DNA from: Patescibacteria group bacterium
Lineage (GTDB): Bacteria > Patescibacteriota > Minisyncoccia > Phycocordibacterales > SIBU01
Direction: 5' to 3'
DNA: 64,000 nucleotides
Assembly: GCA_040390045.1 (NCBI GenBank)
Contig: JAZJZC010000001.1
Coordinates: forward strand, 254,318 to 318,317
Below the pieces are notes generated by a model. The model had not been told where the DNA came from and ran no database searches. It saw nothing but the letters and a program-made list of their open reading frames with translations. The translations under genes and the position numbers were made by a program. Positions 1-14,152 of this stretch are shown piece by piece. Each line of letters opens with the position of its first letter. Position 1 is the first letter of the stretch.

Positions 1-1
1 T

Positions 2-54
2 AATTTGGTGAAGTTTGCGTATTAGCAAACCAAGCCAATTTTCACTACGGGATG
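2..54 (+). promoter_or_regulatory. conserved ~53-nt 5' leader motif (copy 1) ending at the fcl start codon
   Basis: AATTTGGTGAAGTTTGCGTATTAGCAAACCAAGCCAATTTTCACTACGGGATG is nearly identical to 6879..6931. Confidence 0.6.
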
Positions 55-981
55 GAAAAAAATTCCAAAATTTATGTTGCTGGACACCGAGGACTGGCGG
101 GGTCGGCAATAGTTCGCAAACTGATTGCTGAAGGCTTTACGAACCTCGTGCTCAAAACGCGATCTGAACTCGACCTTCTCGATCAAAAAGCTGTCGCTCA
201 ATTTTTCGAAAAGGAAAAACCGGAATTTGTTTTTTTGGCAGCCGCGAAAGTCGGCGGCATCATGGCGAATAACACCCACCCCGCAGAATTTATTTATGAA
301 AATTTGGTGGTTCAAACAAATGTCTTGCACGCGGCTCAAAAAAACAACGTGCAAAAATTAGTATTCCTTGGAAGTTCCTGCATCTACCCGCGTCTCGCTC
401 CGCAACCAATCAAAGAAGAATATTTTTTGTCAGGACCTCTGGAGCCAACAAATGAAGCCTACGCCGTGGCGAAAATTGCCGGCATCGTGACTTGCCAAGC
501 CTACCGAACAGAATATGGCTCAAATTTTATTTCAATTATGCCAACCAACCTGTACGGACCAAATGACAATTTCGATCTAGAAAATTCTCATGTCTTGCAA
601 GGATTGATTCGCCGATTCCATGAAGCCAAAGAAAGCGGGGCGCAGACAATTACCCTGTGGGGGACGGGCACCGCGCGACGAGAACTCCTTCAAGTTGATG
701 ATTTTGCCACCGCCGCACTGTTCCTCATGCAAAATTACAACAGCGGAGAGATTATCAACGTAGGCACGGGTACTGACATTTCCATAAAAGAACTTGCTGA
801 AAGCGTGAAAAAAATTGTTGGATTTTCTGGTGAAATTTTGTGGGACACAACGAAACCCGACGGTATGCCAAGAAAACTTCTCGATGTTTCTAAAATTCAC
901 AAACTCGGCTGGAAACATTCCGTTGCCCTCGAGGACGGCATCCATGACACATACGAATGGTATGTCAAAAACGTAAAGTAA
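52..981 (+). CDS. fcl: GDP-L-fucose synthase (GDP-4-keto-6-deoxy-D-mannose 3,5-epimerase/4-reductase)
   Basis: 309 aa; N-terminal KIYVAGHRGLAGSAI Rossmann motif, SSCIYP and YAVAKIAG catalytic region typical of Fcl/WcaG; ATG at 52. Confidence 0.85.
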   Translation: MEKNSKIYVAGHRGLAGSAIVRKLIAEGFTNLVLKTRSELDLLDQKAVAQFFEKEKPEFVFLAAAKVGGIMANNTHPAEFIYENLVVQTNVLHAAQKNNVQKLVFLGSSCIYPRLAPQPIKEEYFLSGPLEPTNEAYAVAKIAGIVTCQAYRTEYGSNFISIMPTNLYGPNDNFDLENSHVLQGLIRRFHEAKESGAQTITLWGTGTARRELLQVDDFATAALFLMQNYNSGEIINVGTGTDISIKELAESVKKIVGFSGEILWDTTKPDGMPRKLLDVSKIHKLGWKHSVALEDGIHDTYEWYVKNVK

Positions 982-997
982 AAAATGAAAAACTAAA

Positions 998-1816
998 ATG
1001 AAGACGTTAATTATTAAACCAAAAAAAACTTTCAGCCTTGAGGACATCAGGGAAGTTTGGCGTTACAAAGAGCTGCTGGTTTTTTTCGTTTGGCGCGATA
1101 TCAAAGTTCGCTACAAACAAACCATTGTCGGCATCGGCTGGGCAATTTTCCAACCGTTTATGACCATGGTTGTGTTTAGCGTTTTCTTCGGCAAACTGAT
1201 TCAAGTGCCTTCGGACGGCATTCCCTATCCAATTTTCGTCTACACTGGACTTTTATTTTGGCAACTATTTGCATCTGCGTTAGGCGATACTTCCAACTCA
1301 CTTATTTCCAACTCAGCCATCATCACCAAAGTATATTTTCCTCGAATAATTTTACCCCTCGCTGATACTGCCAACAAATTCGTGGATTTTTTCTTTGCCA
1401 GTTTGGCTCTCATTTTCTTAATGTTCCACTATGGATATATTCCAGATCTCGCTGGAATTCTTTTGATCCCCGTACTGCTTATAATTACTTCTGCTACGGC
1501 AGTAGGTGCAGGACTGGTGCTCGCGTCAATCAACGTGAAATACCGAGACGTCAGATATATTCTGCCATTTTTTATGCAACTGTTGCTTTTTCTCACACCC
1601 GTTATTTACCCTTCAAGTATCGCTGGAAAATATAGTTGGATCCTTTCGCTCAACCCAATGACAGGCGTGATCAAAGCGGCACGAGCAGGTATTCTCGGCA
1701 CAGGGCCTATTGGGTGGAATTCCCTGGCAATTTCAGCCTTCATGGCAGTGGTATTTTTAAGTATTGGAATTTATTTATTCAAAAAAACTGAACGATATTT
1801 TGCCGATATTGTATAA
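998..1816 (+). CDS. wzm: ABC-2 type polysaccharide/O-antigen export permease (Wzm/TagG-like)
   Basis: 272 aa, about 6 TM segments, typical N-terminal region of ABC-2 permeases; directly upstream of an ABC ATPase. Confidence 0.75.
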   Translation: MKTLIIKPKKTFSLEDIREVWRYKELLVFFVWRDIKVRYKQTIVGIGWAIFQPFMTMVVFSVFFGKLIQVPSDGIPYPIFVYTGLLFWQLFASALGDTSNSLISNSAIITKVYFPRIILPLADTANKFVDFFFASLALIFLMFHYGYIPDLAGILLIPVLLIITSATAVGAGLVLASINVKYRDVRYILPFFMQLLLFLTPVIYPSSIAGKYSWILSLNPMTGVIKAARAGILGTGPIGWNSLAISAFMAVVFLSIGIYLFKKTERYFADIV

Positions 1817-1820
1817 ATGT

Positions 1821-3086
1821 ATGGACCCTATAATTACTATAAAAAATATTGGTAAGCGCTATAACATCACCGGAAGAAAAGGTGGGTATGTTGCCCTGCG
1901 AGATATTTTCTCTGAGTATGTGCGACATCCGTATAGGAGTTTGAAGCACATCGTGAAATACATTCTCGGAAAAAATCGCAATGAAGTTTTTTGGGCACTG
2001 AGAGACATTAATTTCACCGTCGAAAAAGGCGAAGCCATCGGAATCATTGGACCAAACGGCGCCGGCAAATCAACCTTGCTCAAAATTCTCTCGAGAATTA
2101 CTCCGCCAACAGAGGGTGAGATTCGCATTCAAGGTAGAGTCGCATCGCTTCTCGAGGTAGGAACAGGCTTTCATCCGGAACTTTCTGGCCGCGAAAATAT
2201 TTATCTCAACGGCGCCATTTTAGGCATGACTCGAAAAGAAATTGCTGGAAAAATAGATCAGATCATCGAATTTTCCGGAGTGTCACAATTCATTGATACT
2301 CCGGTTAAACGCTATTCATCCGGAATGTACGTTAGGCTAGCCTTCGCCATCGCGGCCCATATTGAACCTGACATTTTAATCGTTGACGAAGTGCTTGCCG
2401 TCGGCGACGCTGAATTCCAAAGGAAATGTCTCGGCAAAATGGATGAAGTGACTCGCGTTGGGCATCGAACAGTAATTTTTGTCAGTCACAATATGGATGC
2501 TATTAGTAGACTCTGTACCAAAACCATCCTTCTCGATAAAGGAAAAATAATTGCCGCCGGAGACACCGATGAAGTCATCGGAAAATATTTGAGCGCCGGA
2601 TACAATTCTGCCACACACCTGCCATTCCCTATTAAAGATCGAGAAGTAAATTTGCATAGCTATTCAGTACAGCAGGATGGAAACGAAACCCTAACCATTG
2701 CGGGCGAGAAACCTTTCAAAGTGCACGTGGATTTTTCAATTGAAAAAATGCTGCGTTCGTTCAGAGCGGGAATCTTCGTAAAAAATATTATGGGCACCGT
2801 CATTACGAGAACTTTTGTGCAAGACTACGCCCGTGAGTTAGAAGAAATCGCTCCGGGAAGATACCGCGCGGCAATTGAAATCCCTCCGGGACTTTTGATG
2901 ACAGGCGAATACCACCTTGAGCTTAAAATTTTCTGCCTTGGTATCACCAATTTCTTTGAAGACGAACACATTGAAAAAAATATCACGGTGTATTCACCAA
3001 AAAATTATAACGAGGTTCGCTCAAAAAATACCGACCTCCGAGGTTACTTTTTAATACCAAGTAAGTGGGAAACAAAAAAGGAGTAA
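1821..3086 (+). CDS. wzt: ABC transporter ATP-binding protein, Wzt/TagH-like, with C-terminal carbohydrate-binding-type extension
   Basis: Walker A GPNGAGKST, signature YSSGMYVRLAFA, Walker B ILIVDE; about 170 aa C-terminal extension; start taken at ATG 1821 (MDPIITIKNIGKRY). Confidence 0.75.
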   Translation: MDPIITIKNIGKRYNITGRKGGYVALRDIFSEYVRHPYRSLKHIVKYILGKNRNEVFWALRDINFTVEKGEAIGIIGPNGAGKSTLLKILSRITPPTEGEIRIQGRVASLLEVGTGFHPELSGRENIYLNGAILGMTRKEIAGKIDQIIEFSGVSQFIDTPVKRYSSGMYVRLAFAIAAHIEPDILIVDEVLAVGDAEFQRKCLGKMDEVTRVGHRTVIFVSHNMDAISRLCTKTILLDKGKIIAAGDTDEVIGKYLSAGYNSATHLPFPIKDREVNLHSYSVQQDGNETLTIAGEKPFKVHVDFSIEKMLRSFRAGIFVKNIMGTVITRTFVQDYARELEEIAPGRYRAAIEIPPGLLMTGEYHLELKIFCLGITNFFEDEHIEKNITVYSPKNYNEVRSKNTDLRGYFLIPSKWETKKE

Positions 3087-3093
3087 CCTCGTC

Positions 3094-4200
3094 ATGACGA
3101 ACGATTCAAAAAAATTAATCCGAGTGAAGGTCTCAACTTCAAGTCCTGCCGTGCCTCACATTAAAACGACACCGGGCTCCAAAGGAGTTGTTGGAAATTT
3201 CCAATTTTTCATCGATCAGGATGTGAAAGACGTCGATTGGTGGGTGGTGGTGGACGGATTTCCACAAAAAGAAACTGCTTCGTGTCCAAGAGAAAATACC
3301 ATTCTCATCACTCAGGAAACCGAAGTGGTCAAAACCTACAGCCAAAAATACATTGATCAATTCCATTGGATAATTACTAGCCAGCAAACTCTCAAACACC
3401 CGAGGCAAATTTTCACCCAACAAGGCCATCAATCCTATCTGTTTCTGAGGCGGCGAGAAGCGGGGCAAAGCCTCGAAAGTTTTCAAGCACAATTTAAAAC
3501 CTACGACGAGCTCCGCGCTCAAACGCCCGCTGACATTCCAAAATCCAAATTGCTCTCAACGGTTATTTCTCAAAAATTACGCACAGAAGGTGCTCAAGCG
3601 CGACACCATTTTGTGATGGAATTACGGAAACACTTCGGTGATCGGTTTGATATTTTCAGTAATAAACTCGCAGACAACAGTCAAAATGTTTTTGGTCCGG
3701 AAGCCAAAACCACGCCCTACAAATGGGATGCGGTTGCGCCATATAAATATTTGCTTTCGATTGAAAACAGTTACGCTCCGAACTGGTGGACCAATCACCT
3801 CTTCGACGGCTTCATCGCTGGCGCCTACCCTATTTTTTACGGCCATCCATCTGTGTTTAATTATTTCCCAAAAAATTCTCTCACCTTAATCGACATCAAT
3901 GATCTTCCCGGATCAATCGCCACCATCGAAAGGGTTTTCTCAGAAAACTATTTTGAGAAATACCAAAAAGAAATTTGGGAGGCACGAAGACTTGTCTTGG
4001 ATAAATATTATCTGTTCGGCATGTTGGCTGAAGAAATAGCAAAACTTCCCGCTGGAAAAAATCCAACACGCATTACTCTTTTCCCCGAGCAGAAACCGTG
4101 GCTGAAGAAAAAAATTGTTGAAACATTGCGCGGAAAAGGAGTGTTATATACCATACCAAGGAAGTTATATAGAATGTATCGAAAAATCCGTTATGATTAA
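3094..4200 (+). CDS. putative fucosyltransferase (GT10-like C-terminal domain)
   Basis: C-terminal KYLLSIENSYAPNWWTNHLFDGFIAGAYPIFYGHPSVFNYFPKNS resembles the GT10 alpha-1,3/4-fucosyltransferase motif (K-F/Y-x-L-S-x-E-N-S ... IPIYWG-x-P); AAAAGGAG RBS before the ATG. Confidence 0.5.
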   Translation: MTNDSKKLIRVKVSTSSPAVPHIKTTPGSKGVVGNFQFFIDQDVKDVDWWVVVDGFPQKETASCPRENTILITQETEVVKTYSQKYIDQFHWIITSQQTLKHPRQIFTQQGHQSYLFLRRREAGQSLESFQAQFKTYDELRAQTPADIPKSKLLSTVISQKLRTEGAQARHHFVMELRKHFGDRFDIFSNKLADNSQNVFGPEAKTTPYKWDAVAPYKYLLSIENSYAPNWWTNHLFDGFIAGAYPIFYGHPSVFNYFPKNSLTLIDINDLPGSIATIERVFSENYFEKYQKEIWEARRLVLDKYYLFGMLAEEIAKLPAGKNPTRITLFPEQKPWLKKKIVETLRGKGVLYTIPRKLYRMYRKIRYD

Positions 4201-4876
4201 AAATAAAAAAATTGTGGCGCTCATACCTTTGCGCGGAGGGTCAAAATCAATCCCGTACAAAAATATAAAAAACTTAGGAGGAAAACCTCTGGCTTTTTGG
4301 GTATGCCAAGCGGCTTTAGAATCAAAATACATTGATGCGGTGTATGTTTCGACTGAGGATGAAAAAATTAAAAAAACTATTGAAAATCTCAAACTTCCTA
4401 TAAAAATTATAGACCGACCGGAAAACCTAGCGACCGATGTTGCAACTGACGAAGCGGTCCTATTGCATGCGATACAGGAAATTAAATGTGACATCTTGAT
4501 TGACCTCCACGCCACTCACCCTTTGACTGACGCATCACATTTGGATTCCGCTCTGGAAAAGTTTGTTAAAGGGGGTTATGATTCGATGCTTACAGGAGTG
4601 CTATTTAAAAACTTCTACTGGACACGAGAAGGTGTGCCGCTCAATTACAATCCCTTGAAAAGACCGATGCGACAACAGTGGGAAGGCACGGTGACCGAAA
4701 ATGGCGCGTTTTACATCACAACTCCAGACACGCTCCGAACGCACGGAAATTTTTTAGGAGGAAAAATAGGCATTTATGAAATGCCGAAGGACATCTACGT
4801 TGATATCGATGAACCGTCGGACTGGGAAAAGGCGGAAAAAATGTTCGCTTTAAAAAAGGTGACCAAAAACGATTAA
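4193..4876 (+). CDS. neuA: acylneuraminate cytidylyltransferase family protein (CMP-nonulosonic acid synthetase)
   Basis: N-terminal KIVALIPLRGGSKSIPYKNIK motif of CMP-NeuAc/CMP-KDO-type cytidylyltransferases; start at ATG 4193 overlapping upstream stop. Confidence 0.7.
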   Translation: MIKNKKIVALIPLRGGSKSIPYKNIKNLGGKPLAFWVCQAALESKYIDAVYVSTEDEKIKKTIENLKLPIKIIDRPENLATDVATDEAVLLHAIQEIKCDILIDLHATHPLTDASHLDSALEKFVKGGYDSMLTGVLFKNFYWTREGVPLNYNPLKRPMRQQWEGTVTENGAFYITTPDTLRTHGNFLGGKIGIYEMPKDIYVDIDEPSDWEKAEKMFALKKVTKND

Positions 4877-4894
4877 AAAATTAGCGCACAAAGC

Positions 4895-6790
4895 ATGAAA
4901 AATAAAACCATAAAAATAGGCGATCGAATAATTGGGGAGAACCAGCCAGCCTTTATTATTGCCGAAGCTGGCATCAACCACAACGGCCATATTGAATTGG
5001 CAAAAAAATTGATTGATCTTGCGGTTACCGCCAGGGCTGACGCCGTAAAATTTCAGATGCGGGATTTTAAAACTCTCTACACCGATAATGCCTGGAACAA
5101 CACGAAACATGAAGATATTGCTTCGCAGTATGTTTTATCGCTCATTCGTGAATCGGAACTCTCTTTTGATAATTTTAAAGAACTTTCTCGATACGCCAAA
5201 TCAAAAGGAATTATATTTCTCTGTACGCCGTTTGACGTCGCGAGCGTTGATGCTTTGGAAAAATTGGGCGTACCTGCGTATAAGGTTTCGAGTGGTGACA
5301 TGGTGAATTTTGAATTACTTGAATATATCGCCAGCAAAAACAAACCGATGCTTCTTTCGACCGGTATGTCCACCTTCGACGAAATAGAAAAAACCGTCAA
5401 ACACTTGGATACTCTTGGCGCCGAATATATTTTGCTTCATTGCAACAGCACCTACCCAACCCCCGGAAAGGATATTAACCTTCGATTTATTCAGATTCTT
5501 AAAGAAAAGTTTGGCGGCATTGTCGGCTATTCCGGACATGAATTGGGAATTGCGGTAAGCACTGCGAGCGTCGCCCTAGGTGCCAAAGTAATCGAGCGCC
5601 ATATTACTCTTGATCACACCATGAAGGGGCCCGACCACGCAGTCAGTCTTGAACCAGCCGGCATCGTCAAACAAGTTCGAGATATTCGCTATCTCGAGTT
5701 GGCCTTACAAGGTGATAAAAAATTCATCACTTCAGGAGAATTCATGAATCGTAAAATTATGGGCAAAAGCCTGGTGGCTAAAGCCGCCATTAAGAAGGGC
5801 GATACGATTACCCGTCAAATGGTAATCGCCAAAAGTCCCGCCAAAGGTCTTTCTCCACAAAAATTGTACGAACTTGTTGGCACCAAAGCCCTTCGGGATA
5901 TTCCGAAGGAAGGTTACTTTACTGAAGAGGATTTAGGCAAAAAAAAGATTGATAGAACTTTTTCCTCAAACAGAAAGTGGGGGCTCATTGTCCGCCCACA
6001 TGACTTTGAAGAGATGATCGAGGGTCTTAAGCCTTCATTTGTAGAGTTCCATTTCAGTTCACATGACTTAAAAAATCCGATTGTCCTCAAAGATCATCCC
6101 GAACTAGAACTGATTGTTCATGCGCCTGAACTCTGGGGAGATGAGCTGCTTGATTTTTCTTCAACTGATCCTGCCACCATTAAACATTCAATTAAATACA
6201 TCAATGACCTCTTGAACACTGTCCGTTCAATGCGTAAACATTTTGGGAAAACTCCTCCAAAAGTAAAAGTGGTGCTTCACCCGGGTGGCATGAGTTTCGA
6301 TCAATTTGTTACAAAAAGTGAGCGCGCAAAAATGTACACCAAGCTCGGTAATGCTTTGAAAAAAATTGATCAAACCGGCATCGAGCTTCTCTTGGAAAAT
6401 CAAGCTCCCCTGCCATGGTATAAAGGCGGATCGTGGTTTTCCAACACCTTCATTGACGCCGATGAAATATTTGAGTTTGCGAAAAAACACGGCTTCAGTC
6501 TCTGTTATGATAGTAGCCATGCGCAGTTGTACTGCTCATTAGCCAAAAAAGATCCGATTGAATACTTCAAAACTCTGAAACCCTTGGTTAAACACGTTCA
6601 CCTCTCTGACGGCATCGGTACTGACGGTGAGGGCATTCAAGTAGAAGAAGGTGATGTGCCGTGGAAATTACTCATGCCGGAAATCCTAAAAACGGATACA
6701 ACAATCGCCCCAGAAATCTGGATGGGACACCGCAACAATGGCGAAGGGTTTATTACAGGACTCAAACGACTGAAAAAATATGGGTTATAA
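4895..6790 (+). CDS. neuB: N-acetylneuraminate synthase family (NeuB/PseI/LegI) fused to a C-terminal sugar-phosphate isomerase/epimerase-like (xylose isomerase-like TIM barrel) domain
   Basis: The N-terminal ~330 aa (FIIAEAGINHNG, then a SAF-like domain GKSLVAKAAIKKGDTI) match NeuB; the C-terminal ~300 aa (HAPELWGDELLDF..., HPGGMS..., LLLENQ..., YDSSHAQLY) look like an AP-endonuclease-2/xylose-isomerase-like TIM barrel. Confidence 0.65.
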   Translation: MKNKTIKIGDRIIGENQPAFIIAEAGINHNGHIELAKKLIDLAVTARADAVKFQMRDFKTLYTDNAWNNTKHEDIASQYVLSLIRESELSFDNFKELSRYAKSKGIIFLCTPFDVASVDALEKLGVPAYKVSSGDMVNFELLEYIASKNKPMLLSTGMSTFDEIEKTVKHLDTLGAEYILLHCNSTYPTPGKDINLRFIQILKEKFGGIVGYSGHELGIAVSTASVALGAKVIERHITLDHTMKGPDHAVSLEPAGIVKQVRDIRYLELALQGDKKFITSGEFMNRKIMGKSLVAKAAIKKGDTITRQMVIAKSPAKGLSPQKLYELVGTKALRDIPKEGYFTEEDLGKKKIDRTFSSNRKWGLIVRPHDFEEMIEGLKPSFVEFHFSSHDLKNPIVLKDHPELELIVHAPELWGDELLDFSSTDPATIKHSIKYINDLLNTVRSMRKHFGKTPPKVKVVLHPGGMSFDQFVTKSERAKMYTKLGNALKKIDQTGIELLLENQAPLPWYKGGSWFSNTFIDADEIFEFAKKHGFSLCYDSSHAQLYCSLAKKDPIEYFKTLKPLVKHVHLSDGIGTDGEGIQVEEGDVPWKLLMPEILKTDTTIAPEIWMGHRNNGEGFITGLKRLKKYGL

Positions 6791-6821
6791 TCCCGTAGTA
6801 GAAATTGGCTTCGCTGTTTGC
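6791..6821 (-). repeat. inverted copy of the leader motif directly after the neuB-fusion stop codon
   Basis: TCCCGTAGTAGAAATTGGCTTCGCTGTTTGC is the reverse complement of GCAAACAG(CGAA)GCCAATTT(C)TACTACGGGA; with copy 2 it forms a ~30-nt inverted repeat around a ~75-nt spacer. Confidence 0.6.
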
Positions 6822-6878
6822 TACAACAAACTTAAAGTATAATATGAGAGTTTCAATTACAAAACTTAGCTTAATCTA

Positions 6879-6931
6879 AATTTGGCGAAGTTCGCTTCAC
6901 AGCAAACAGAGCCAATTTTCACTACGGGATG
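6879..6931 (+). promoter_or_regulatory. conserved leader motif (copy 2) ending at the TylF-like methyltransferase start codon
   Basis: AATTTGGCGAAGTTCGCTTCACAGCAAACAGAGCCAATTTTCACTACGGGATG. Confidence 0.6.
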
Positions 6932-7594
6932 AAAATTTTAAACCAATTTAACAGCGATGACAGTTTTCTGTACGAAAACGGTTTTTATCTCACCGCCAAA
7001 CCAGACCGACTTGGAAAACTTTTGGCGCACTACGAGCTCTACAAAAAAATTGCTGATTTGCCCGGCGCTATCGTTGAGTGCGGCGTATTTAAAGGCGCAT
7101 CACTCATCCGCTTCGCCACATTTCGAAATTTGTTTGAAGCAGAACACTCGAGAAAAATCATCGGCTTTGACATGTTTGGAAAATTTCCAGAAACTAAATT
7201 TAACGAAGATAAAAAATACCGCAAAAAATTTATTGACACTGCAGGCGAAGAAGGAATTACAGAAACTGAGCTTACGCAAGTCTTTGAACTCAAGGATTTG
7301 AAAAATTATGAATTGCTAAAGGGAGATATTAACAAAACGGTTCCTGAATACATAAAAAATAATCCGCACTTGAAAATTGCCCTACTCCACATCGACACCG
7401 ACGTCTACGAACCCGCAGTGACCATCCTCCGTGAAATGTATGACCGCGTCGTCCGCGGCGGCATCATTGCCTTTGATGACTACGGCACCTTCCCTGGCGA
7501 GACCAAGGCCGTCGATGAATTCTTCAAAGACAAAAAAGTTTCGATTAAAAAATTACCTTTTTCTCACATTCCCTCTTTTATCGTAAAACCGTAA
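6929..7594 (+). CDS. TylF/MycF-family sugar O-methyltransferase
   Basis: HIDTDVYEPAVTILREMYDRVVRGGIIAFDDYG matches the macrocin O-methyltransferase family signature; GVFKGAS SAM motif. Confidence 0.7.
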   Translation: MKILNQFNSDDSFLYENGFYLTAKPDRLGKLLAHYELYKKIADLPGAIVECGVFKGASLIRFATFRNLFEAEHSRKIIGFDMFGKFPETKFNEDKKYRKKFIDTAGEEGITETELTQVFELKDLKNYELLKGDINKTVPEYIKNNPHLKIALLHIDTDVYEPAVTILREMYDRVVRGGIIAFDDYGTFPGETKAVDEFFKDKKVSIKKLPFSHIPSFIVKP

Positions 7595-8292
7595 TGAAAA
7601 GTGGAGCTGTAATAAAACGAGGTGGAACAGATACTGAGAGACTCTATCTTGAGAGCCTTGATTTTAAAATGCCAACCGGAGAAAACGTGCAGGTCACAAA
7701 AACAGCAAGTGATGTCCCCGGCTACAATATGAAAGAGCATATTGCGCGACATACGGGGCGATACGCGCTTTTAAATCTATATGGCAAACCAGGGAACACC
7801 GTACTCGATTTCCCTTGCGGAAGCGGCTATGCATCTAAAATTGCAAAAAATCTCGAGCTCAATTACGAAGGAAAAGAATTCGACCGGGTAACTGTCGAGT
7901 ATGCCCGGCGCCTCTACGGCGCAGAACACATTACTTTCAATGAAGGCGATTTTACAAAACCAAACCTTTCAGAAAAAAGCTTTGATATAATTGCGTGCAT
8001 AGAAGGACTCGAACACATGGAGCAAAAATACCAACTTCCTCTTATCCAATCTTTCTATAAAAGCTTAAAAAAGGATGGAGTACTCATTGTCAGTTCCCCG
8101 GAAAATCCAACCGGAAAATCCGGACCGAGCATAACCAACAAAGATCATATTTGGGAGTTGACTAGAATCGACTTTAGTAAACTCCTGTCTAAAGTTTTCG
8201 GAGAAAAGAATGTTGAACTTCTGAGCTACAAAGCCCGATTAAGTACTGGAGTAATCTCGACCTGCTTCTATGGCGTCTGCCATAAAAACTAA
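7594..8292 (+). CDS. class I SAM-dependent methyltransferase
   Basis: VLDFPCGSGY motif I; overlaps neighbouring genes (ATGA-type coupling at 7594). Confidence 0.55.
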   Translation: MKSGAVIKRGGTDTERLYLESLDFKMPTGENVQVTKTASDVPGYNMKEHIARHTGRYALLNLYGKPGNTVLDFPCGSGYASKIAKNLELNYEGKEFDRVTVEYARRLYGAEHITFNEGDFTKPNLSEKSFDIIACIEGLEHMEQKYQLPLIQSFYKSLKKDGVLIVSSPENPTGKSGPSITNKDHIWELTRIDFSKLLSKVFGEKNVELLSYKARLSTGVISTCFYGVCHKN

Positions 8293-9172
8293 TCCTTTTG
8301 CTACCATGAGAACCGTCTTAAAAAAAATCCCGATACTAGGAAACCTTTTAAAAAAAACTGGTGATATCCGCCGTGCCATAAAAGACTCCTTTAATTCCTA
8401 CAATTTTTACCGACGTTACAAAAAAATTCTTAGGGCGAACGAGGTCATGGCTGGAAGCGCAAGGAATAAACGCGTCTTCATACTAGCAACTGGCCCCTCA
8501 ATCAAATCACAAAATCTTTCGATACTGAAAGACGAAATCTGCATCAGTGTCAGTAATTTTTTTGTCCATCCGGATTTTAAAACCATCCTTCCTAAATATC
8601 ACGTATTTGCCCCATCACACGACCCAATTCCAGACTCTCAGATTGTCCTCTGGTTTGCTGACGCCGAAAAACATTTCCCTGAAGGCCAAGAAGTTTTTGT
8701 GGCACTTCACGACAAATTCTTGGTAGATGGAAATAATCTTTTTAAAAAACAAAAAGTTCGGTACTATCAGATTGATTACGCCCGCAAAGGAAAAATTGAA
8801 AAAATAGATTTCACCAAACGTATTCCAGCCATTCAAACCGTGGCCCATCTCGCTACCTACCTTGGTTTGTATTTAGAACCTCAGGAATTATATCTTTTAG
8901 GAGTTGATCACGATTGGATATTGCATATCGACAAAGGTAGACATTTTTATGAAGAAGAAAAAAGTGTACTTGTCCAAGGCATTCCCCAAAAATCCCCAGT
9001 TCAAAAAGATCTAGAAGATGAGTTCCGAAACTATCTCAATTTATGGCATCTATATAAAAATATTCGCGCCTACGCCGCTAGCCACGGAGTAAGCATTAAA
9101 AACGCCACTCCGGGCTCTTTACTCGACGTGTTCCCGCGAGTGAACTTGGAAACTCTTTTCGAGCGTAAATAA
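8270..9172 (+). CDS. DUF115 / MptE-like (Maf-like) protein, putative nonulosonic-acid transferase
   Basis: VFILATGPSIKS and LLGVDHDW motifs resemble the 6-hydroxymethylpterin diphosphokinase MptE-like/motility-accessory-factor family; start uncertain (8270 or 8306). Confidence 0.45.
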   Translation: MASAIKTNPFATMRTVLKKIPILGNLLKKTGDIRRAIKDSFNSYNFYRRYKKILRANEVMAGSARNKRVFILATGPSIKSQNLSILKDEICISVSNFFVHPDFKTILPKYHVFAPSHDPIPDSQIVLWFADAEKHFPEGQEVFVALHDKFLVDGNNLFKKQKVRYYQIDYARKGKIEKIDFTKRIPAIQTVAHLATYLGLYLEPQELYLLGVDHDWILHIDKGRHFYEEEKSVLVQGIPQKSPVQKDLEDEFRNYLNLWHLYKNIRAYAASHGVSIKNATPGSLLDVFPRVNLETLFERK

Positions 9173-9177
9173 TTTTT

Positions 9178-10836
9178 ATGAACCAGAAACCTCTTTCACT
9201 CTCCGATCCAATCAGTTTCGTCATTCCGGGCTTCAATTGCGCCTCAACAATTCTTGAGTCTATTGAATCGATCATTGATGGTAACTGGACAGAAGGAGAT
9301 GAACTTATCATCGTGAACGATGGATCAACTGACAACACTGAAAACGTGCTTGCCGAAGCTAAGAAAAAATATCCGTTTATTAAAGTTTTCAATGAAAAAG
9401 AAAACCGTGGCTGCCCTGCGGCCCGAAACATCGGCTACACGCATGCCAGTCACGAAATTATCTTCAACCTTTATTCTGACGATGTGTTAGTCCCTGGAAG
9501 TGTGGCAAAACTAAAAGAGTACATGATCTCCGAAAATGCCGACATTGCCGGTTTTGAAGAATATCGCTATTTTAAAGAAGAAAAAAATGGCAAGAAAAAA
9601 ATTACTCATCGTTGGATGTGTAGACCGGGAGTTTTATCGCTACCAGATTTTCTCGCAGGCGATATAAACCCAGGGCCAGGGGGAAACTTCATGTTCATTA
9701 AACAAATCTGGAAAGATGTTGGCGGTGTTTGGGAATATGGAAAAGGTATGCACGAAGCCTGGGGTTTTACACTTAAATGTCTTATGGCAGGAGCCAAGTT
9801 TGTCGTCATGCCAAAAAGTTTTTACTTTCACCGATACGGCAGTAATTCCCTCTTTGTTCGCGAAGCCGAAAAAGAAAATGAGGTGTCACTCATGGCAACC
9901 AAAATGATTACGCCGTACCTCGATCGACTAGAACCAAGCGACAAGGCTTACATCCAAAGTGAGGAAGGCAGCAAAAATTGGTACAGCTCACTTGACCGCG
10001 CTCCCATTCGACTTAAAGGCGAACCGTTCGGTAAAACGGGTGTTATTGTTGTGGCAACTGACGCTCGATTAAAAACTCTGGTCTTGAGAAAAATTAAAAT
10101 TGCCTACCCTATCTATCGACGCGCTAAGGCCTTACTCTCACGAACCAAATCCTACGTTCGGTTTATCAAACAATTCAAATCGTTTCAAAAATCAAATTCT
10201 CGATTTGTAATGAGCTGGAAAGAACACCGAGCTTTTTTACGAGACGCCGATAAAAATTTTAGTTTTGATCGCCACTATGTCTACCATCCGGCATGGGCAG
10301 CGCGTGTCTTAAAAGAAACCAGCCCCCAAGAACATGTTGATATTTCATCGACCGTTCACTTTTGTTCAATCGTCTCAGCTTTTATTCCGGTGAAATTTTA
10401 CGACTATCGAAAAACTGATATCCGGCTCTCAGGCCTCTCTTGTGGCGAAGCTGACTTATTGAAATTACCCTTCGAATCAAACAGCCTTCAATCACTTTCC
10501 TGCATGCACACCATAGAGCACATTGGCCTTGGCCGCTATGGCGATCCAATAGACCCTGATGGAGATCTTAAAGCCGTTGCCGAACTAACTCGAGTATTGG
10601 CAAAAGGTGGCACACTTTTATTCGTAGTACCAATTGGAAAACCGAAAATTATTTTCAATGCCCACAGAATTTATTCGTATGATCAAATTCTTACCGCTTT
10701 CAAAACTTTGACCTTGAAAGAATTCTCTCTAATTCCAGAAAAACAATCAGCCGGTGGAATTATAAAAAATGCCACGAAAGAAAGAGCCGATCAGGAAGAC
10801 TACGGCTGCGGTTGTTTTTGGTTTACAAAATCGTAA
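9178..10836 (+). CDS. GT2 glycosyltransferase fused to a DUF268-like putative methyltransferase domain
   Basis: N-terminal IIVNDGSTDNT...DDV is GT2-like; the C-terminal HTIEHIGLGRYGDPIDPDGD region resembles DUF268/class I methyltransferase-like domains. Confidence 0.55.
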   Translation: MNQKPLSLSDPISFVIPGFNCASTILESIESIIDGNWTEGDELIIVNDGSTDNTENVLAEAKKKYPFIKVFNEKENRGCPAARNIGYTHASHEIIFNLYSDDVLVPGSVAKLKEYMISENADIAGFEEYRYFKEEKNGKKKITHRWMCRPGVLSLPDFLAGDINPGPGGNFMFIKQIWKDVGGVWEYGKGMHEAWGFTLKCLMAGAKFVVMPKSFYFHRYGSNSLFVREAEKENEVSLMATKMITPYLDRLEPSDKAYIQSEEGSKNWYSSLDRAPIRLKGEPFGKTGVIVVATDARLKTLVLRKIKIAYPIYRRAKALLSRTKSYVRFIKQFKSFQKSNSRFVMSWKEHRAFLRDADKNFSFDRHYVYHPAWAARVLKETSPQEHVDISSTVHFCSIVSAFIPVKFYDYRKTDIRLSGLSCGEADLLKLPFESNSLQSLSCMHTIEHIGLGRYGDPIDPDGDLKAVAELTRVLAKGGTLLFVVPIGKPKIIFNAHRIYSYDQILTAFKTLTLKEFSLIPEKQSAGGIIKNATKERADQEDYGCGCFWFTKS

Positions 10837-10839
10837 AAA

Positions 10840-11832
10840 CTATTTTCTTCGAGAGCTTTTCTTTTTTTGAGCGTTCTTTTTAAAAACTAAAATGTTGTAG
10901 TATTTTTCGGCTGAAAATGAAAATTTCGGACCGATATTCTCGTCGAGTTCTTCGAGAATGGATTCGATACTCCCTTTCGGCTTAAACCCTAAAATTTTCT
11001 TGGCTTTGTCGATCAACACTTTGTAGTTACGTTTATCCGGAACATTTTTCACTTCAACTTCCAATTTCTTGCCGTGTTTCTCCGCAAAATGTTTGCGAAT
11101 TTTTTCGCCGACTTCTCCGACAGTGAAGTTACCTGAAGAAATATTGAAAATGCCACTGACCGAAAGTGGTGCAGAAACCGCGAGCACATAGGCGTCTACC
11201 GCGTCCGCAATCGTAAGAATCGGCCTCCAAATACCTGGGTTATTCACCGTAATCTTTCCGATCGTCTGTGCCTTCATGTACATCGTGTTGACGATAAGAT
11301 CAAAACGCATGCGTGGACTCCATCCGGAAATGGTACCTTTGCGCAAACTGATTACTGAAAAATTTTCATCTTGAAAATACATCACACCAAATTCCCCTTT
11401 TCGTTTTGAAATACCGTAGGGATACAAACTGGTTGCTACGTCCTCCTCATGTAGTGGTTTGTTGTCAGTGAAACCGTACACCGAACCGGAACTGGCGTAG
11501 ATAAAACGCCCGACGCCCGCGAGTTTCGCAACGTAGGCAAGATAGGCTGGAGCCGCGCCGTTGTAAATAAAATTTTGGGACGGCGAAAATTCCGCCATCG
11601 GATCATTCGATAATCCCGCCAAAAAAATCACTTGGTCAAATCCTTTCAAACTCTCAACATCAATATCGAAAACATCTTTCTTAATGACCGGTACGGATTT
11701 TGGCAAATTATTACCAAACCACAATAAATCGAGCACTGTAACTTTATGGCCTTCTTGCAAGAGTTTAGGCACAAGTCGTGAACCGACATAGCCTGCGCCA
11801 CCGGCTACTAAAATTTTTTGTTTAGCGGACAT
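10840..11832 (-). CDS. NAD-dependent epimerase/dehydratase (extended SDR) family protein
   Basis: KILVAGGAGYVGS Rossmann motif, YPYGISK catalytic YxxxK. Confidence 0.65.
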   Translation of the reverse strand: MSAKQKILVAGGAGYVGSRLVPKLLQEGHKVTVLDLLWFGNNLPKSVPVIKKDVFDIDVESLKGFDQVIFLAGLSNDPMAEFSPSQNFIYNGAAPAYLAYVAKLAGVGRFIYASSGSVYGFTDNKPLHEEDVATSLYPYGISKRKGEFGVMYFQDENFSVISLRKGTISGWSPRMRFDLIVNTMYMKAQTIGKITVNNPGIWRPILTIADAVDAYVLAVSAPLSVSGIFNISSGNFTVGEVGEKIRKHFAEKHGKKLEVEVKNVPDKRNYKVLIDKAKKILGFKPKGSIESILEELDENIGPKFSFSAEKYYNILVFKKNAQKKKSSRRK

Positions 11833-13081: not shown

Positions 13082-13137
13082 CCTTTTCAATGAAATGCTT
13101 TTCCGAGGATTTTCTGAAAAAAATTATAAAATTTGCA

Positions 13138-14151: not shown

Positions 14152-14152
14152 A

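What the first reader, a model, noticed from the sequence alone, without database searches (positions are those of the whole stretch)
4193..9172. Nonulosonic (sialic-like) acid module with a NeuB-TIM-barrel fusion, two methyltransferases and a Maf/DUF115-like putative transferase
The neuA-like cytidylyltransferase and neuB-like synthase are adjacent. The NeuB homolog carries an unusual ~300-aa C-terminal xylose-isomerase-like TIM-barrel domain, possibly an epimerase or isomerase that supplies the hexosamine substrate in cis. Downstream, tightly overlapping genes encode a TylF-like O-methyltransferase, a second SAM methyltransferase and a DUF115/MptE-like protein. DUF115 is the family of Campylobacter Maf proteins implicated in transferring pseudaminic or legionaminic acid. 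Together this suggests synthesis, methylation and transfer of a modified nonulosonic acid.
Basis: partly seen in the sequence, partly recalled or inferred. Interest (0 to 1): 0.6.

Follow-up and report, generated by a model that had tools for sequence, protein, structure and literature searches.

The report
Two-gene Kdn-type sialic acid module
A candidate-phylum (Patescibacteria) bacterium carries a compact gene set that most likely makes, activates, methylates and attaches a sialic-acid-like sugar of the Kdn type to an exported surface glycan. The extra barrel domain on its synthase, which databases label an isomerase, sits exactly where related systems carry a phosphatase.

Summary
Window 4193-9172 encodes, in order:
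- a NeuA-like cytidylyltransferase;
- a 631-aa NeuB+SAF+xylose-isomerase-like TIM-barrel fusion;
- a TylF-like O-methyltransferase;
- a class I SAM methyltransferase;
- a 288-aa MptE/DUF115-like protein whose model resembles the sialyltransferase Cst-II.

The fusion is not rare. At least 598 species-representative genomes carry a relative. A cytidylyltransferase gene lies within 10 kb in 56 of 72 fused loci.

A Serratia marcescens NeuB of the same described architecture is required for capsular Kdn (PMC9000132). I could not check its sequence.

The window has no neuC, pse or leg genes. The Arg that binds the N-acetyl group in Neisseria NeuB is Ser here. The NeuB domain shares a basic-residue signature with unfused NeuBs that sit next to a KdsC-like phosphatase.

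That phosphatase gene neighbours 10 of 13 unfused NeuBs but only 4 of 74 fused ones. Two of those four belong to a second, unfused cassette.

Best reading:
- Man-6-P + PEP gives Kdn-9-P (NeuB domain).
- The TIM domain dephosphorylates it (inferred).
- NeuA makes CMP-Kdn.
- The sugar is transferred and O-methylated on a Wzm/Wzt-exported glycan.

This is a new member of a known but mechanistically unresolved kind.

The parts
998..1816 (+). Wzm-like ABC-2 permease of the glycan exporter (context)
   Evidence: Pfam ABC2_membrane, E 1.6e-15. The same Wzm-Wzt pair precedes the module in the CPR relative L093.
1764..3086 (+). Wzt-like ABC ATPase with a C-terminal Wzt_C-like domain (context). The true start is probably downstream of the TTG at 1764.
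   Evidence: ABC_tran E 2.6e-23. Wzt_C scores 29.1 bits, just under the 30.4 cut-off. NCBIfam TagH/Wzt models score 190-210 bits, below their cut-offs.
3094..4200 (+). GT10 (alpha-1,3-fucosyltransferase)-like glycosyltransferase. Its stop overlaps the neuA-like start.
   Evidence: Glyco_transf_10 at 24.4 bits, E 2.5e-5. There are weak PDB sequence hits to fucosyltransferases. In CPR relative L092 the homologue is fused to the CTP_transf_3 domain as one 551-aa protein. In L093 it follows Wzt.
4193..4876 (+). NeuA-like CMP-nonulosonate synthetase (227 aa)
   Evidence: CTP_transf_3 E 3.6e-28. Best PDB sequence matches are PpNeuA 9t4z (128 bits) and mouse CMP-Neu5Ac synthetase 1qwj (119 bits), against N. 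meningitidis 1eyr at 60 bits. The PseF equivalog scores 101 bits against a cut-off of 205.7. A homologue lies within 10 kb of the fusion in 56 of 72 fused loci.
4895..5950 (+). NeuB + SAF part of the fusion (aa 1-352): PEP-dependent nonulosonate(-9-phosphate) synthase
   Evidence: NeuB E 5.6e-82, SAF 6.4e-07. NmNeuB 1xuu scores 189 bits, with metal ligands His215 and His236 conserved and Arg314 replaced by Ser. It scores below the NeuB_NnaB (345 vs 399.65) and PseI (253 vs 340.25) cut-offs. The signature R56, H248, R262, K291, S314 is shared with phosphatase-linked unfused NeuBs.
5951..6790 (+). Xylose-isomerase/endonuclease-IV-superfamily TIM-barrel domain of the fusion (aa 353-631). Proposed Kdn-9-P phosphatase; the rival role is sugar isomerase/epimerase.
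   Evidence: AP_endonuc_2 E 3.3e-16. AF2 pLDDT 94.1. Foldseek top hits are ketose 3-epimerases and UlaE. hhalign gives UlaE 82% and Nfo 29%. Invariant residues are H409, H462, E501, D539, H542, H569, D577, E579, E607. It is encoded as a separate gene just downstream of NeuB in L096 and L097. It is mutually exclusive with the adjacent KdsC-like phosphatase.
6791..6928 (+). Intergenic spacer with a long hairpin whose 3' arm abuts the TylF start codon
   Evidence: RNA MFE -48.3 kcal/mol, z = -7.2. Inverted repeat I1. The 3' half recurs at window 1-54, upstream of the GDP-fucose synthase ATG. No Rfam match.
6929..7594 (+). TylF-family sugar O-methyltransferase (221 aa)
   Evidence: TylF E 5.4e-22, 78.7 bits against a cut-off of 23. 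TylF homologues flank the neuA-neuB pair in Alishewanella L024 and occur in L038, L044, L045 and L059.
7594..8292 (+). Class I SAM-dependent methyltransferase (232 aa)
   Evidence: Methyltransf_25/11/23/31 at E 1e-11 to 1e-10. A homologue occurs in Roseibium L044 (228 bits). Non-orthologous class I methyltransferases follow the fusion in L004, L005, L007 and L092, and one is fused to it in P0067.
8306..9172 (+). MptE/DUF115-like, Cst-II-like putative CMP-nonulosonate glycosyltransferase (288 aa by the deposited start; the ORF opens at 8270)
   Evidence: PF01973 at 26 bits against a 34.6 cut-off for this protein, but 26 of 26 family members hit it. AF2 pLDDT 91.9. Foldseek gives Cst-II E 5.5e-5, MptE HPPK and ST8SiaIII. 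Motifs are shared with Maf 5mu5 and Cst-II. It is adjacent to the fusion or CTP3 in L092, L093 and L059. In at least 12 cases fusion and MptE-like hits report the same longest-contig length, which suggests a shared contig.
9178..10836 (+). GT2 glycosyltransferase fused to a DUF268/Methyltransf_11-type methyltransferase (552 aa); probable partner in glycan assembly or capping
   Evidence: Glycos_transf_2 E 4e-28, DUF268 1.7e-16. Separate GT2 and DUF268 methyltransferase genes sit directly upstream of CTP3 and the fusion in L006.

Best explanation
The region is a self-contained module for a Kdn-type (deaminated, non-amino) nonulosonic acid. It sits inside a Wzm/Wzt (ABC-transporter-dependent) surface-glycan locus of a Patescibacteria genome.

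Proposed steps:
1. The NeuB+SAF part of the 631-aa fusion condenses PEP with a hexose 6-phosphate, most likely mannose-6-phosphate, to give Kdn-9-phosphate. The enzyme family and catalytic residues are shown. The substrate is inferred.
2. The C-terminal TIM-barrel domain belongs by fold to the xylose-isomerase/endonuclease-IV superfamily. I propose that it removes the 9-phosphate and so stands in for the KdsC-like HAD phosphatase used by unfused relatives. This is inferred from gene-context complementarity and the metal-site pattern. It is not shown.
3. The NeuA-like enzyme (4193-4876) makes the CMP-activated sugar. The family is shown.
4. The Cst-II/Maf-like MptE-family protein (8306-9172) transfers the sugar to the glycan, possibly together with the GT10-like protein (3094-4200). 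This is inferred from fold, motifs and synteny.
5. The TylF-like and class I methyltransferases O-methylate the sugar or a neighbouring residue. The families are shown; the target is inferred.
6. Wzm/Wzt export the finished polymer (context).
For: Domains and folds.

Conserved core pair:
- A CTP_transf_3 gene lies within 10 kb of the fusion in 56 of 72 fused loci. These span bacteria and archaea and include an Orenia flagellin-glycosylation island with three Maf genes.
- In S. marcescens KL1/KL2, neuA plus a NeuB described as carrying an extra COG1082 sugar-phosphate isomerase/epimerase domain (2241-bp ORF) are the genes specific to Kdn-producing capsule types. Deleting neuB abolishes sialic acid and capsule (PMC9000132).
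- The 746-751-aa CBS+NeuB+SAF+TIM class is common in Proteobacteria and Cyanobacteria.

Non-amino, phosphorylated substrate:
- NmNeuB Arg314 is Ser here.
- The protein scores below the NeuB_NnaB and PseI equivalog cut-offs.
- There is no neuC, pseB/C/H/G or legB/C/H/G in 64 kb. The adjacent DegT is RfbH-like.
- The fused NeuB domains share R56, D135, H248, R262, K291 and S/G314 with unfused NeuBs that have an adjacent KdsC-like phosphatase. NmNeuB lacks these residues.
- Kdn is known to be made from Man-6-P + PEP (PMC7845648).

TIM domain as phosphatase:
- A KdsC-like gene abuts 10 of 13 unfused NeuBs but occurs in only 4 of 74 fused loci (Fisher p = 6e-8).
- In L011 and L015 the two arrangements sit side by side: CTP3-HAD-NeuB and CTP3-NeuB-TIM.
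- When the fusion is split, the TIM gene lies immediately downstream of NeuB, in the same position as the HAD gene.
- The window has no KdsC-like gene.
- Invariant H462, E501, D539, H542 and H569 align with the endonuclease IV Zn ligands H109, E145, D179, H182 and H216. H409, D577, E579 and E607 are further invariant metal-type residues.

Transfer and export:
- The MptE-like gene is adjacent to CTP3 or the fusion in CPR relatives, together with Wzm/Wzt.
- GT10-like and CTP3 are fused in L092.

Methylated Kdn exists in nature: 5-O-methyl-Kdn in S. fredii (reference 44 in PMC9000132).
Against: - No enzyme of this fusion family has been assayed.
- I could not retrieve the Serratia NeuB sequence. 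Its membership in this family rests on the paper's domain description and ORF length.
- By overall sequence and fold the TIM domain is closest to sugar epimerases: UlaE hhalign 82% against Nfo 29%, and the top 50 Foldseek hits are epimerases or isomerases. I know of no phosphomonoesterase acting on sugars in this superfamily (own knowledge).
- The HAD/TIM complementarity would also arise if fused enzymes used an unphosphorylated sugar made by an isomerase domain.
- L011 and L015 carry both cassettes, so the two probably make different products.
- CPR relatives L092 and L093 have weak KdsC-like hits near the fusion.
- The MptE-like hit is sub-threshold for this protein, and the fold-match TM-scores are modest (0.43-0.49).
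- The methyltransferases are not conserved across relatives, so their target is unknown.
Confidence: 0.5

Rival explanations
1. First reader's model. The TIM barrel is a true sugar isomerase or epimerase that makes the manno-configured aldose in cis for the NeuB domain. Possible reactions are Fru(-6-P) or Glc(-6-P) to Man(-6-P), or GlcNAc to ManNAc. It would replace NeuC or a phosphomannose isomerase.
For: - The best fold and profile matches are ketose 3-epimerases, UlaE, YcjR and Art22.
- The canonical E-D-H-E metal tetrad aligns with UlaE E155, D185, H211 and E251.
- The extra D577-x-E579 and D539-x-x-H542 residues have spacing like the second metal site of xylose isomerase (own knowledge of XI ligands; the local alignment is).
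- No neuC is present in the window, and neuC is rare near fused loci (3 of 72).
- If the substrate is unphosphorylated, the absence of a HAD phosphatase is explained as well.
Against: - neuC is equally rare near the unfused close relatives (1 of 13), so there is no complementarity with NeuC.
- The NeuB domain shares its extra basic residues with phosphatase-linked NeuBs. That points to a phosphorylated substrate, which would still need a phosphatase.
- Man-6-P is a standard metabolite. The window makes GDP-fucose (Fcl at 491 bits), which requires mannose phosphates.
- Hexosamine supply is unlikely because Arg314 is Ser.
Confidence: 0.28
2. The TIM barrel acts on the keto-acid product or an intermediate, for example by epimerisation or dehydration next to the C2 keto group. 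The module would then make a Kdn stereoisomer or a deoxy variant rather than Kdn.
For: - Superfamily members act next to keto groups (YcjR, ketose 3-epimerases).
- L011 and L015 hold both a plain NeuB cassette and a fused cassette, which suggests different products.
- GFO_IDH_MocA oxidoreductases are frequent neighbours (18 of 72).
Against: - The Serratia strains make authentic Kdn, identified by GC-MS, HPAEC-PAD and DMB-UPLC against standards.
- C3 of a nonulosonate is a methylene, so 3-epimerisation has no meaning there.
- This role does not explain the missing phosphatase.
Confidence: 0.1
3. The module makes a pseudaminic- or legionaminic-type diamino nonulosonic acid. It would use the dehydratase and aminotransferase genes elsewhere in the locus. 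The DUF115 protein would be a Maf-like protein glycosyltransferase.
For: - DegT aminotransferases and SDR dehydratases are present in the window. 31849-33054 scores 334 bits on the LegC family model. 14153-15136 scores 128 bits on LegB.
- In Orenia the fusion lies among Maf genes.
Against: - All Pse/Leg equivalog scores are below their cut-offs: PseI 253 vs 340, PseF 101 vs 206, LegC 334 vs 420, LegB 128 vs 475.
- 11822-13090 is RfbH-like, which indicates a 3,6-dideoxyhexose route.
- No hydrolysing 2-epimerase was detected. No PseH/PseG-type gene showed up in the ORFs scanned up to 42 kb.
- The Orenia island has no aminotransferase or acetyltransferase.
- The ORF lacks Maf_flag10_N.
Confidence: 0.07
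4. The 8306-9172 protein is not a glycosyltransferase. It would be a pyrophosphokinase like archaeal MptE, or serve another nucleotide-dependent role unrelated to the sugar.
For: The Pfam family is named after MptE, and M. jannaschii HPPK 8sd5 is among the top fold hits (E 1.5e-4).
Against: - The best fold hit is Cst-II, and ST8SiaIII also appears.
- The gene is consistently adjacent to CTP3 or the NeuB-TIM fusion in glycan loci.
- Nothing in the surrounding locus suggests pterin or folate biosynthesis.
Confidence: 0.05

Closest known systems
Serratia marcescens KL1/KL2 capsule neuA-neuB (Anderson et al. 2022, PMC9000132)
   Same: - An adjacent acylneuraminate cytidylyltransferase-family gene sits beside the synthase.
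- The NeuB is described as carrying an extra sugar-phosphate isomerase/epimerase (COG1082) domain.
- No neuC is reported in the locus.
- The genes lie inside a surface-polysaccharide locus.
- Genetics and chemistry tie the pair to Kdn, with minor Neu5Ac.
   Different: - The Serratia ORF is 2241 bp (about 746 aa). That matches the CBS+NeuB+SAF+TIM class. The window protein (631 aa) has no CBS domain.
- Serratia uses Wzy-type group 1 capsule assembly; the window uses Wzm/Wzt.
- I did not see a report of methyltransferases or a DUF115 protein there.
- Sequence identity could not be checked.
Bacteroides thetaiotaomicron Kdn pathway (Kdn-9-P synthase BT1714 plus HAD phosphatase BT1713; Wang et al. 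2008, cited in PMC9000132 and PMC7845648)
   Same: - A NeuB-family synthase with a sugar-6-phosphate logic (Man-6-P + PEP), followed by dephosphorylation and CMP activation.
- The closest unfused relatives of the window's NeuB domain have exactly this layout, with an adjacent KdsC-like HAD phosphatase.
   Different: - The window and 70 of 74 fused loci lack the HAD phosphatase. A TIM-barrel domain occupies its position.
- The B. thetaiotaomicron proteins themselves were not compared here.
Neisseria meningitidis NeuB (PDB 1xuu), the canonical bacterial Neu5Ac synthase
   Same: - TIM barrel plus SAF/antifreeze-like domain.
- Conserved metal ligands His215 and His236 and PEP-binding residues E24, K52, Q54 and K130.
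- 189-bit match over aa 3-338.
   Different: - Arg314 (N-acetyl contact) is Ser.
- H57 is replaced by R56, I248 by H, Q262 by R and A291 by K.
- There is an extra 280-aa C-terminal domain.
- The protein scores below the TIGR03569 cut-off.
Ketose 3-epimerases, L-xylulose-5-P 3-epimerase UlaE and endonuclease IV (AP_endonuc_2 superfamily)
   Same: - Same (beta/alpha)8 fold, with TM about 0.6-0.7.
- E501, D539, H569 and E607 match the UlaE metal tetrad.
- H462, E501, D539, H542 and H569 align with Nfo Zn ligands.
   Different: - 10-19% identity.
- Always linked to a NeuB synthase, either fused or encoded just downstream.
- Extra invariant His, Asp and Glu residues absent from the epimerases.
- The activity is unknown.
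Campylobacter Cst-II (GT42) and Maf flagellin nonulosonate transferases (for example Magnetospirillum Maf, PDB 5mu5)
   Same: - The Rossmann-like core is shared.
- So are the N-terminal G-P-S-[IL]-K nucleotide motif and the LG..E[IL]YL.G.D motif.
- All are genomically linked to CMP-nonulosonate synthesis.
   Different: - A stand-alone 288-aa protein with a long N-terminal helix.
- No Maf_flag10_N domain and no flagellin genes in the locus.
- Sequence similarity to the solved structures is not significant on its own (E 0.09-1).

Membership tests
NeuB family (PF03102), PEP-dependent nonulosonate synthases | Pfam NeuB and SAF domains above threshold | tested here: met
   NeuB 275 bits against a cut-off of 22.1; SAF 30.3 against 21.
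NeuB family (PF03102), PEP-dependent nonulosonate synthases | Catalytic metal ligands (NmNeuB His215, His236) and PEP-binding residues conserved | tested here: met
   H215, H236, E24, K52, Q54 and K130 are invariant in the family and aligned to 1xuu.
N-acetylneuraminate synthase proper (TIGR03569 NeuB_NnaB equivalog) | Score above the curated equivalog cut-off | tested here: not met
   345.1 bits against a cut-off of 399.65.
N-acetylneuraminate synthase proper (TIGR03569 NeuB_NnaB equivalog) | Arg314 of the SAF domain, which contacts the ManNAc N-acetyl group | tested here: not met
   Ser314 in the window protein. The position is Ser in 90% or more of the aligned fused proteins and in all eight fused sequences compared.
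Pseudaminic acid pathway (PseI, PseF, PseB, PseC) | Equivalog scores above cut-off for the synthase, cytidylyltransferase, dehydratase and aminotransferase | tested here: not met
   PseI 252.8 vs 340.25. PseF 101.5 vs 205.7. Best PseC 264.7 vs 423.5.
Legionaminic acid / Neu5Ac routes that need a hydrolysing 2-epimerase (NeuC/LegG, PF02350) | An Epimerase_2 gene in the locus | tested here: not met
   tblastn with two Epimerase_2 proteins gave no hit with E<1 in the 64-kb window. The test has limited sensitivity.
Kdn pathway of the sugar-phosphate type (synthase, then 9-phosphatase, then CMP-Kdn synthetase) | Synthase grouping with phosphatase-linked NeuBs | tested here: met
   Shared R56, D135, H248, R262, K291 and non-Arg314 signature. 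tblastn gives 240-311 bits against these unfused NeuBs; phmmer gives 189 bits against NmNeuB. The two figures come from different programs.
Kdn pathway of the sugar-phosphate type (synthase, then 9-phosphatase, then CMP-Kdn synthetase) | A KdsC-like HAD 9-phosphatase gene | tested here: not met
   No KdsC-like hit (E<0.01) in the window. It is present next to 10 of 13 unfused relatives.
Kdn pathway of the sugar-phosphate type (synthase, then 9-phosphatase, then CMP-Kdn synthetase) | The product is Kdn and the substrate is Man-6-P | not testable with these tools
   This needs an enzyme assay or glycan chemistry. The only indirect support is the Serratia data.
Xylose isomerase-like TIM barrel (PF01261 AP_endonuc_2) | Pfam hit above threshold and a (beta/alpha)8 fold | tested here: met
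   60.2 bits against a cut-off of 31.1. AF2 pLDDT 94. Foldseek probability 1.0 to many family members.
Ketose 3-epimerase / UlaE-type epimerases | E-D-H-E single-metal tetrad | tested here: met
   E501, D539, H569 and E607 correspond to UlaE E155, D185, H211 and E251. The D539 pairing is offset by a few residues in the hhalign output.
Ketose 3-epimerase / UlaE-type epimerases | Epimerase or isomerase activity | not testable with these tools
The context argues for another role.
Endonuclease IV-type trinuclear phosphoesterases | Nine Zn ligands (H69, H109, E145, D179, H182, H216, D229, H231, E261) | tested here: inconclusive
   Five align with identical invariant residues (H462, E501, D539, H542, H569). 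H409, D577/E579 and E607 are plausible equivalents but are not in register. Overall hhalign probability is only 29%.
CMP-nonulosonate/Kdo cytidylyltransferases (PF02348) | Pfam hit above threshold and similarity to solved CMP-sialate synthetases | tested here: met
   99.3 bits against a cut-off of 22.6. 9t4z at 128 bits and 1qwj at 119 bits.
MptE-like / DUF115 (PF01973) | Pfam hit above the gathering score | tested here: inconclusive
   The window protein scores 26 bits against 34.6. All 26 aligned homologues hit the family at E<=0.01, with a best E-value of 6e-12. The fold matches MptE HPPK and Cst-II.
Maf flagellin nonulosonate transferases | Maf_flag10_N domain plus a flagellin/flagellar gene context | tested here: not met
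   There is no Maf_flag10_N hit. The neighbours are Wzm/Wzt and glycosyltransferases, not flagellar genes. ORFs beyond 42.3 kb were not scanned.
Wzm/Wzt ABC-transporter-dependent glycan assembly | An ABC-2 permease, an ABC ATPase and a Wzt C-terminal carbohydrate-binding domain | tested here: inconclusive
   ABC2_membrane and ABC_tran are met. Wzt_C scores 29.1 bits, just below 30.4. L093's Wzt also has a weak Wzt_C hit.

The most novel reading that the evidence does not exclude
The TIM barrel attached to NeuB is annotated everywhere as a 'sugar phosphate isomerase/epimerase'. The most novel reading not excluded is that it is a new kind of nonulosonate-9-phosphate phosphatase built on the xylose-isomerase/endonuclease-IV fold. 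It would have displaced the KdsC-like HAD phosphatase. The result would be a two-gene route (neuA plus neuB-TIM) from Man-6-P and PEP to CMP-Kdn. That route would operate in hundreds of bacterial and archaeal lineages, including Patescibacteria, where (O-methyl-)Kdn would decorate or cap a Wzm/Wzt-exported wall glycan.
Probability: 0.4. Interest if true: 0.6.

Novelty: new member of a known kind. Interest (0 to 1): 0.5.

Why it matters
Kdn is regarded as an uncommon bacterial sialic acid (PMC9000132).

- If the neuA plus neuB-TIM pair is a general CMP-Kdn cassette, Kdn-type sugars are far more widespread than thought. The pair occurs in Proteobacteria, Cyanobacteria, Chloroflexota, Patescibacteria, haloarchaea and Asgard-related archaea.
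- These sugars could then be predicted from sequence.
- The work also gives a concrete, cheap experiment for an enzyme domain whose database label may be wrong.
- It points to a nonulosonic acid on the envelope of ultra-small episymbiotic bacteria. A full-text search here found no paper linking nonulosonic acids to Patescibacteria.

For the window itself, the result is an ordinary member of this widespread family.

Tried and rejected
- **Literature.** Searches for the fusion under several term sets found nothing. Only 'N-acetylneuraminate synthase + sugar phosphate isomerase + cytidylyltransferase' led to the Serratia paper. Wang et al. 2008 (PMC4425688) is not held.
- **Serratia NeuB sequence.** I tried to recover it by searching with the Alishewanella 750-aa homologue. 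Serratia was not among the 120 listed hits. The plasmid collection holds only one full-length fusion, on an Ensifer canadensis chromid.
- **Fused methyltransferase.** I compared the methyltransferase domain fused to P0067 with the two window methyltransferases. Only generic class I similarity appeared, E 0.03 or worse. There is no orthology.
- **NeuC complementarity.** Epimerase_2 is rare near both fused (3 of 72) and unfused (1 of 13) NeuBs. This does not discriminate between the models.
- **hhalign against E. coli XylA.** Not significant.
- **Rfam scan of 1-16000.** No match to the hairpin element or anything else.

Full report
**What is there**

The window comes from a Patescibacteria (CPR) metagenome-assembled genome. 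The fusion protein is 100% identical to an NCBI entry named 'MAG: N-acetylneuraminate synthase family protein [Patescibacteria group bacterium]', on a 323,682-bp contig. The closest relatives (76-77% identity) are from Taylorbacteria and Parcubacteria.

The + strand carries a tight gene row from 998 to 10836:

| Coordinates | Product |
|---|---|
| 998-1816 | Wzm-like ABC-2 permease |
| about 1764-3086 | Wzt-like ATPase with a near-threshold Wzt_C domain |
| 3094-4200 | GT10-like glycosyltransferase |
| 4193-4876 | NeuA-like CTP_transf_3 |
| 4895-6790 | NeuB+SAF+AP_endonuc_2 fusion |
| 6929-7594 | TylF-like O-methyltransferase |
| 7594-8292 | class I SAM methyltransferase |
| 8306-9172 | MptE-like protein |
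| 9178-10836 | GT2 fused to a DUF268-type methyltransferase |

- The neuA-like ATG at 4193 overlaps the upstream stop codon.
- A 138-nt spacer with a strong hairpin separates the fusion from the TylF gene.

**The two doubtful domains**

*C-terminal domain of the fusion.* I modelled aa 353-631 from a 21-sequence alignment. The model has pLDDT 94.1. It is a (beta/alpha)8 barrel. The best PDB matches are D-tagatose/D-psicose/L-ribulose 3-epimerases, UlaE, YcjR and Art22, with E down to 2e-10 and TM 0.6-0.7. The refutation criterion 'no TIM-barrel isomerase homology' is not met.

*The last ORF.* It scores only 26 bits on PF01973, below the cut-off of 34.6. Three results support the call anyway:
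- All 26 aligned homologues hit that family.
- The model has pLDDT 91.9. Its best fold matches are Cst-II sialyltransferase (E 5.5e-5), M. jannaschii MptE/HPPK and human ST8SiaIII.
- A family profile searched against PDB sequences ranks Maf 5mu5, MptE and Cst-II first. The E-values are not significant (0.09-1). The G-P-S-[IL]-K and LG..E[IL]YL.G.D motifs align.

It is DUF115-like, but it lacks the Maf N-terminal domain.

**The fusion is common, and its conserved partner is the cytidylyltransferase**

- The protein search returned thousands of ~630-aa NeuB+SAF+TIM proteins. They come from CPR, Rokubacteria, Orenia, Nanoarchaeia, Helarchaeota and Dehalococcoidia.
- A scan of one genome per GTDB species found at least 598 loci. 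Cultured examples include Paraglaciecola, Alishewanella, Nitrosomonas eutropha, Pseudomonas, Burkholderia, Roseibium, Leptolyngbya and Natronococcus.
- A profile of the TIM domain finds 285 50%-identity clusters at E<=1e-30. Most are 610-660 aa or 730-777 aa.
- The longer class has an N-terminal CBS domain (Alishewanella, 750 aa). It is abundant in Proteobacteria and Cyanobacteria.
- In some contigs NeuB+SAF and the TIM barrel are separate adjacent genes, with the TIM gene directly downstream (L096, L097).
- A CTP_transf_3 homologue lies within 10 kb in 56 of 72 fused loci, usually immediately upstream.
- In Orenia marismortui the pair sits in a flagellin glycosylation island with three Maf genes and no aminotransferase or acetyltransferase.

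**Which sugar**

- No canonical Neu5Ac, Pse or Leg supply genes are present. The fusion scores below the NeuB_NnaB and PseI equivalog cut-offs, and the cytidylyltransferase far below PseF.
- The neighbouring DegT is RfbH-like. The SDR enzymes score far below LegB. Gene 52-981 is GDP-fucose synthase.
- Two NeuC queries find nothing in 64 kb.
- In the alignment to N. meningitidis NeuB, the metal histidines are conserved but Arg314 is Ser. The PDB entries 4ipi and 4ipj are mutants at this residue.
- One paper describes this architecture. In Serratia marcescens KL1/KL2 capsule loci, neuA and a neuB are the genes specific to strains that make Kdn, with Neu5Ac at about 1:20. The neuB product is described as having pfam03102 plus an extra COG1082 sugar-phosphate isomerase/epimerase domain, from a 2241-bp ORF. 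Deleting neuB abolishes sialic acid and capsule, and complementation restores them.
- I could not obtain the Serratia sequence. The link therefore rests on architecture and length.
- Kdn is made from Man-6-P and PEP (PMC7845648).

**What the TIM barrel does**

I compared the fused loci with the 13 unfused NeuB loci recovered by the same scan. These unfused proteins give tblastn scores of 240-311 bits against the window's NeuB domain. NmNeuB gives 189 bits by phmmer, a different program.

- *Gene context.* Using E. coli KdsC as query, a KdsC-like HAD phosphatase gene lies directly beside the unfused NeuB in 10 of 13 loci. It is found in only 4 of 74 fused loci, and not in the window (Fisher p = 6e-8).
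- *A natural control.* In two of those four (L011, L015) the phosphatase belongs to a second cassette, CTP3-HAD-NeuB. That cassette lies 4 kb from a CTP3-NeuB-TIM cassette.
- *Shared signature.* The fused NeuB domains share R56, D135, H248, R262, K291 and S/G314 with the phosphatase-linked unfused NeuBs. NmNeuB has H, E, I, Q, A and R at these positions. The three extra basic residues fit a phosphorylated substrate.
- *Metal site.* By overall similarity the domain is nearer UlaE (hhalign 82%) than endonuclease IV (29%). Its invariant H462, E501, D539, H542 and H569 nevertheless align with the Nfo Zn ligands H109, E145, D179, H182 and H216. H409, D577, E579 and E607 are further invariant metal-type residues that single-metal epimerases lack.

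I therefore favour the view that the TIM barrel supplies the 9-phosphatase step. I hold this with only moderate confidence.

The main rival is that the domain is an isomerase or epimerase feeding an unphosphorylated sugar. That would also remove the need for a phosphatase. It matches the fold neighbours better, but it fits the NeuB signature and normal metabolite pools less well.

**Transfer, methylation and export**

- In CPR relative L092 (77% identity) the GT10-like and CTP_transf_3 proteins are fused into one 551-aa protein. The order there is fusion, methyltransferase, MptE-like.
- In L093 (60% identity) the order is Wzm, Wzt(Wzt_C), GT10-like, two SDRs, fusion ... CTP3, MptE-like.
- In a Bdellovibrionota locus the MptE-like gene directly precedes the fusion (L059).
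- At least a dozen fusion and MptE-like hits report the same longest-contig length, which suggests they share contigs.
- TylF-type methyltransferases flank the neuA-neuB pair in Alishewanella and occur in four other fused loci.
- Elsewhere non-orthologous class I methyltransferases take that place, and one is fused to the C-terminus of P0067.

Methylation is thus a recurrent but not orthologous theme. 5-O-methyl-Kdn is a known bacterial sugar (reference 44 in PMC9000132). Patescibacteria are monoderm (own knowledge). The product would therefore resemble the Kdn-containing wall polymers reported from Streptomyces (cited). A role as a non-reducing-end cap read by the Wzt C-terminal domain is possible but untested.

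**Verdict**

Three details are not supported:
- the fusion is not unusual;
- the sugar is more likely Kdn-type than hexosamine-derived or Pse/Leg;
- the DUF115 protein is a Cst-II/Maf-like stand-alone enzyme in a polysaccharide context, not a Maf.

The instance is a new member of a widespread, genetically validated but enzymatically uncharacterised family. The most interesting by-product is the testable proposal that the TIM barrel replaces the HAD phosphatase.

Noticed in passing
window 6791-6928 and window 1-54: A long hairpin (MFE -48.3 kcal/mol, z = -7.2) fills the spacer between the fusion and the TylF gene. Its 3' arm ends at the ATG. About 55 nt of its 3' half recur at roughly 85% identity directly upstream of the GDP-fucose synthase ATG at position 52. 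It is a repeated element or shared leader, with no Rfam match.
   Followed up: partly
L092 6329-7984 (CPR relative), compared with window 3094-4876: The GT10-like protein and the CTP_transf_3 enzyme are two overlapping genes in the window. In a relative they are fused into one 551-aa protein. This suggests that the GT10-like enzyme uses or channels the CMP-sugar.
   Followed up: partly
L011 4245-6316 and 9200-11866; L015 likewise: Two paralogous cassettes lie side by side in Anaerolineae/Chloroflexia genomes: CTP3-KdsC-like-NeuB and CTP3-NeuB-TIM. This is a natural control for the displacement idea. It also hints that the two cassettes make different sugars.
   Followed up: partly
L096 509-2391; L097 584-2506: Split versions exist. 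NeuB+SAF (344-349 aa) is followed by a separate 276-278-aa TIM-barrel gene. In L096 the two genes overlap by 4 nt.
   Followed up: yes
L024 9662-11914 (Alishewanella tabrizica) and P0241-P0360: Proteobacterial and cyanobacterial versions are about 750 aa, with an extra N-terminal CBS domain. In Alishewanella two TylF-like methyltransferase genes flank the neuA-neuB pair.
   Followed up: partly
P0067 (959 aa, metagenomic): A NeuB+SAF+TIM protein with a class I SAM methyltransferase domain fused at the C-terminus. That domain is not orthologous to the window's methyltransferases.
   Followed up: partly
L001 (Orenia marismortui) 1-21884: The CTP3 plus fusion pair lies in a flagellin glycosylation island with flagellins, FliD, three Maf genes, DUF8042 and two alkaline-phosphatase-superfamily (Sulfatase/Phosphodiest) genes. 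There is no aminotransferase.
   Followed up: no
window 10840-15136 (- strand): A convergent block holds an SDR, an RfbH/E1-like PLP enzyme (352 bits), an FMN-dependent alpha-hydroxy-acid dehydrogenase-like protein (unusual in a sugar locus) and a 4,6-dehydratase-like SDR. It suggests a 3,6-dideoxyhexose-type branch.
   Followed up: no
window 15154-15196: A perfect 20-bp inverted repeat with a 3-nt loop lies between the divergent genes 14153-15136 (-) and 15215-15784 (+).
   Followed up: no
window 15857-42308: The rest of the locus is an unusually rich glycan toolkit. It holds a GT11 fucosyltransferase, two sugar C-methyltransferases (18896-20086, 27018-28415), a carbamoyltransferase (28836-30632), a LegC-family-like aminotransferase (31849-33054, below cut-off), a PMT_2 GT-C enzyme (34935-36404) and an RmlB/RmlA/RmlD-like set (39670-42308).
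   Followed up: no
L003 and L005, downstream of the fusion: A recurrent four-gene set follows the fusion in the Rokubacteria locus (L005) and in an unnamed 2.18-Mb contig (L003). It comprises a GFO_IDH_MocA oxidoreductase, a radical SAM/SPASM enzyme, a class I methyltransferase and a DegT aminotransferase. It may further tailor the sugar.
   Followed up: no
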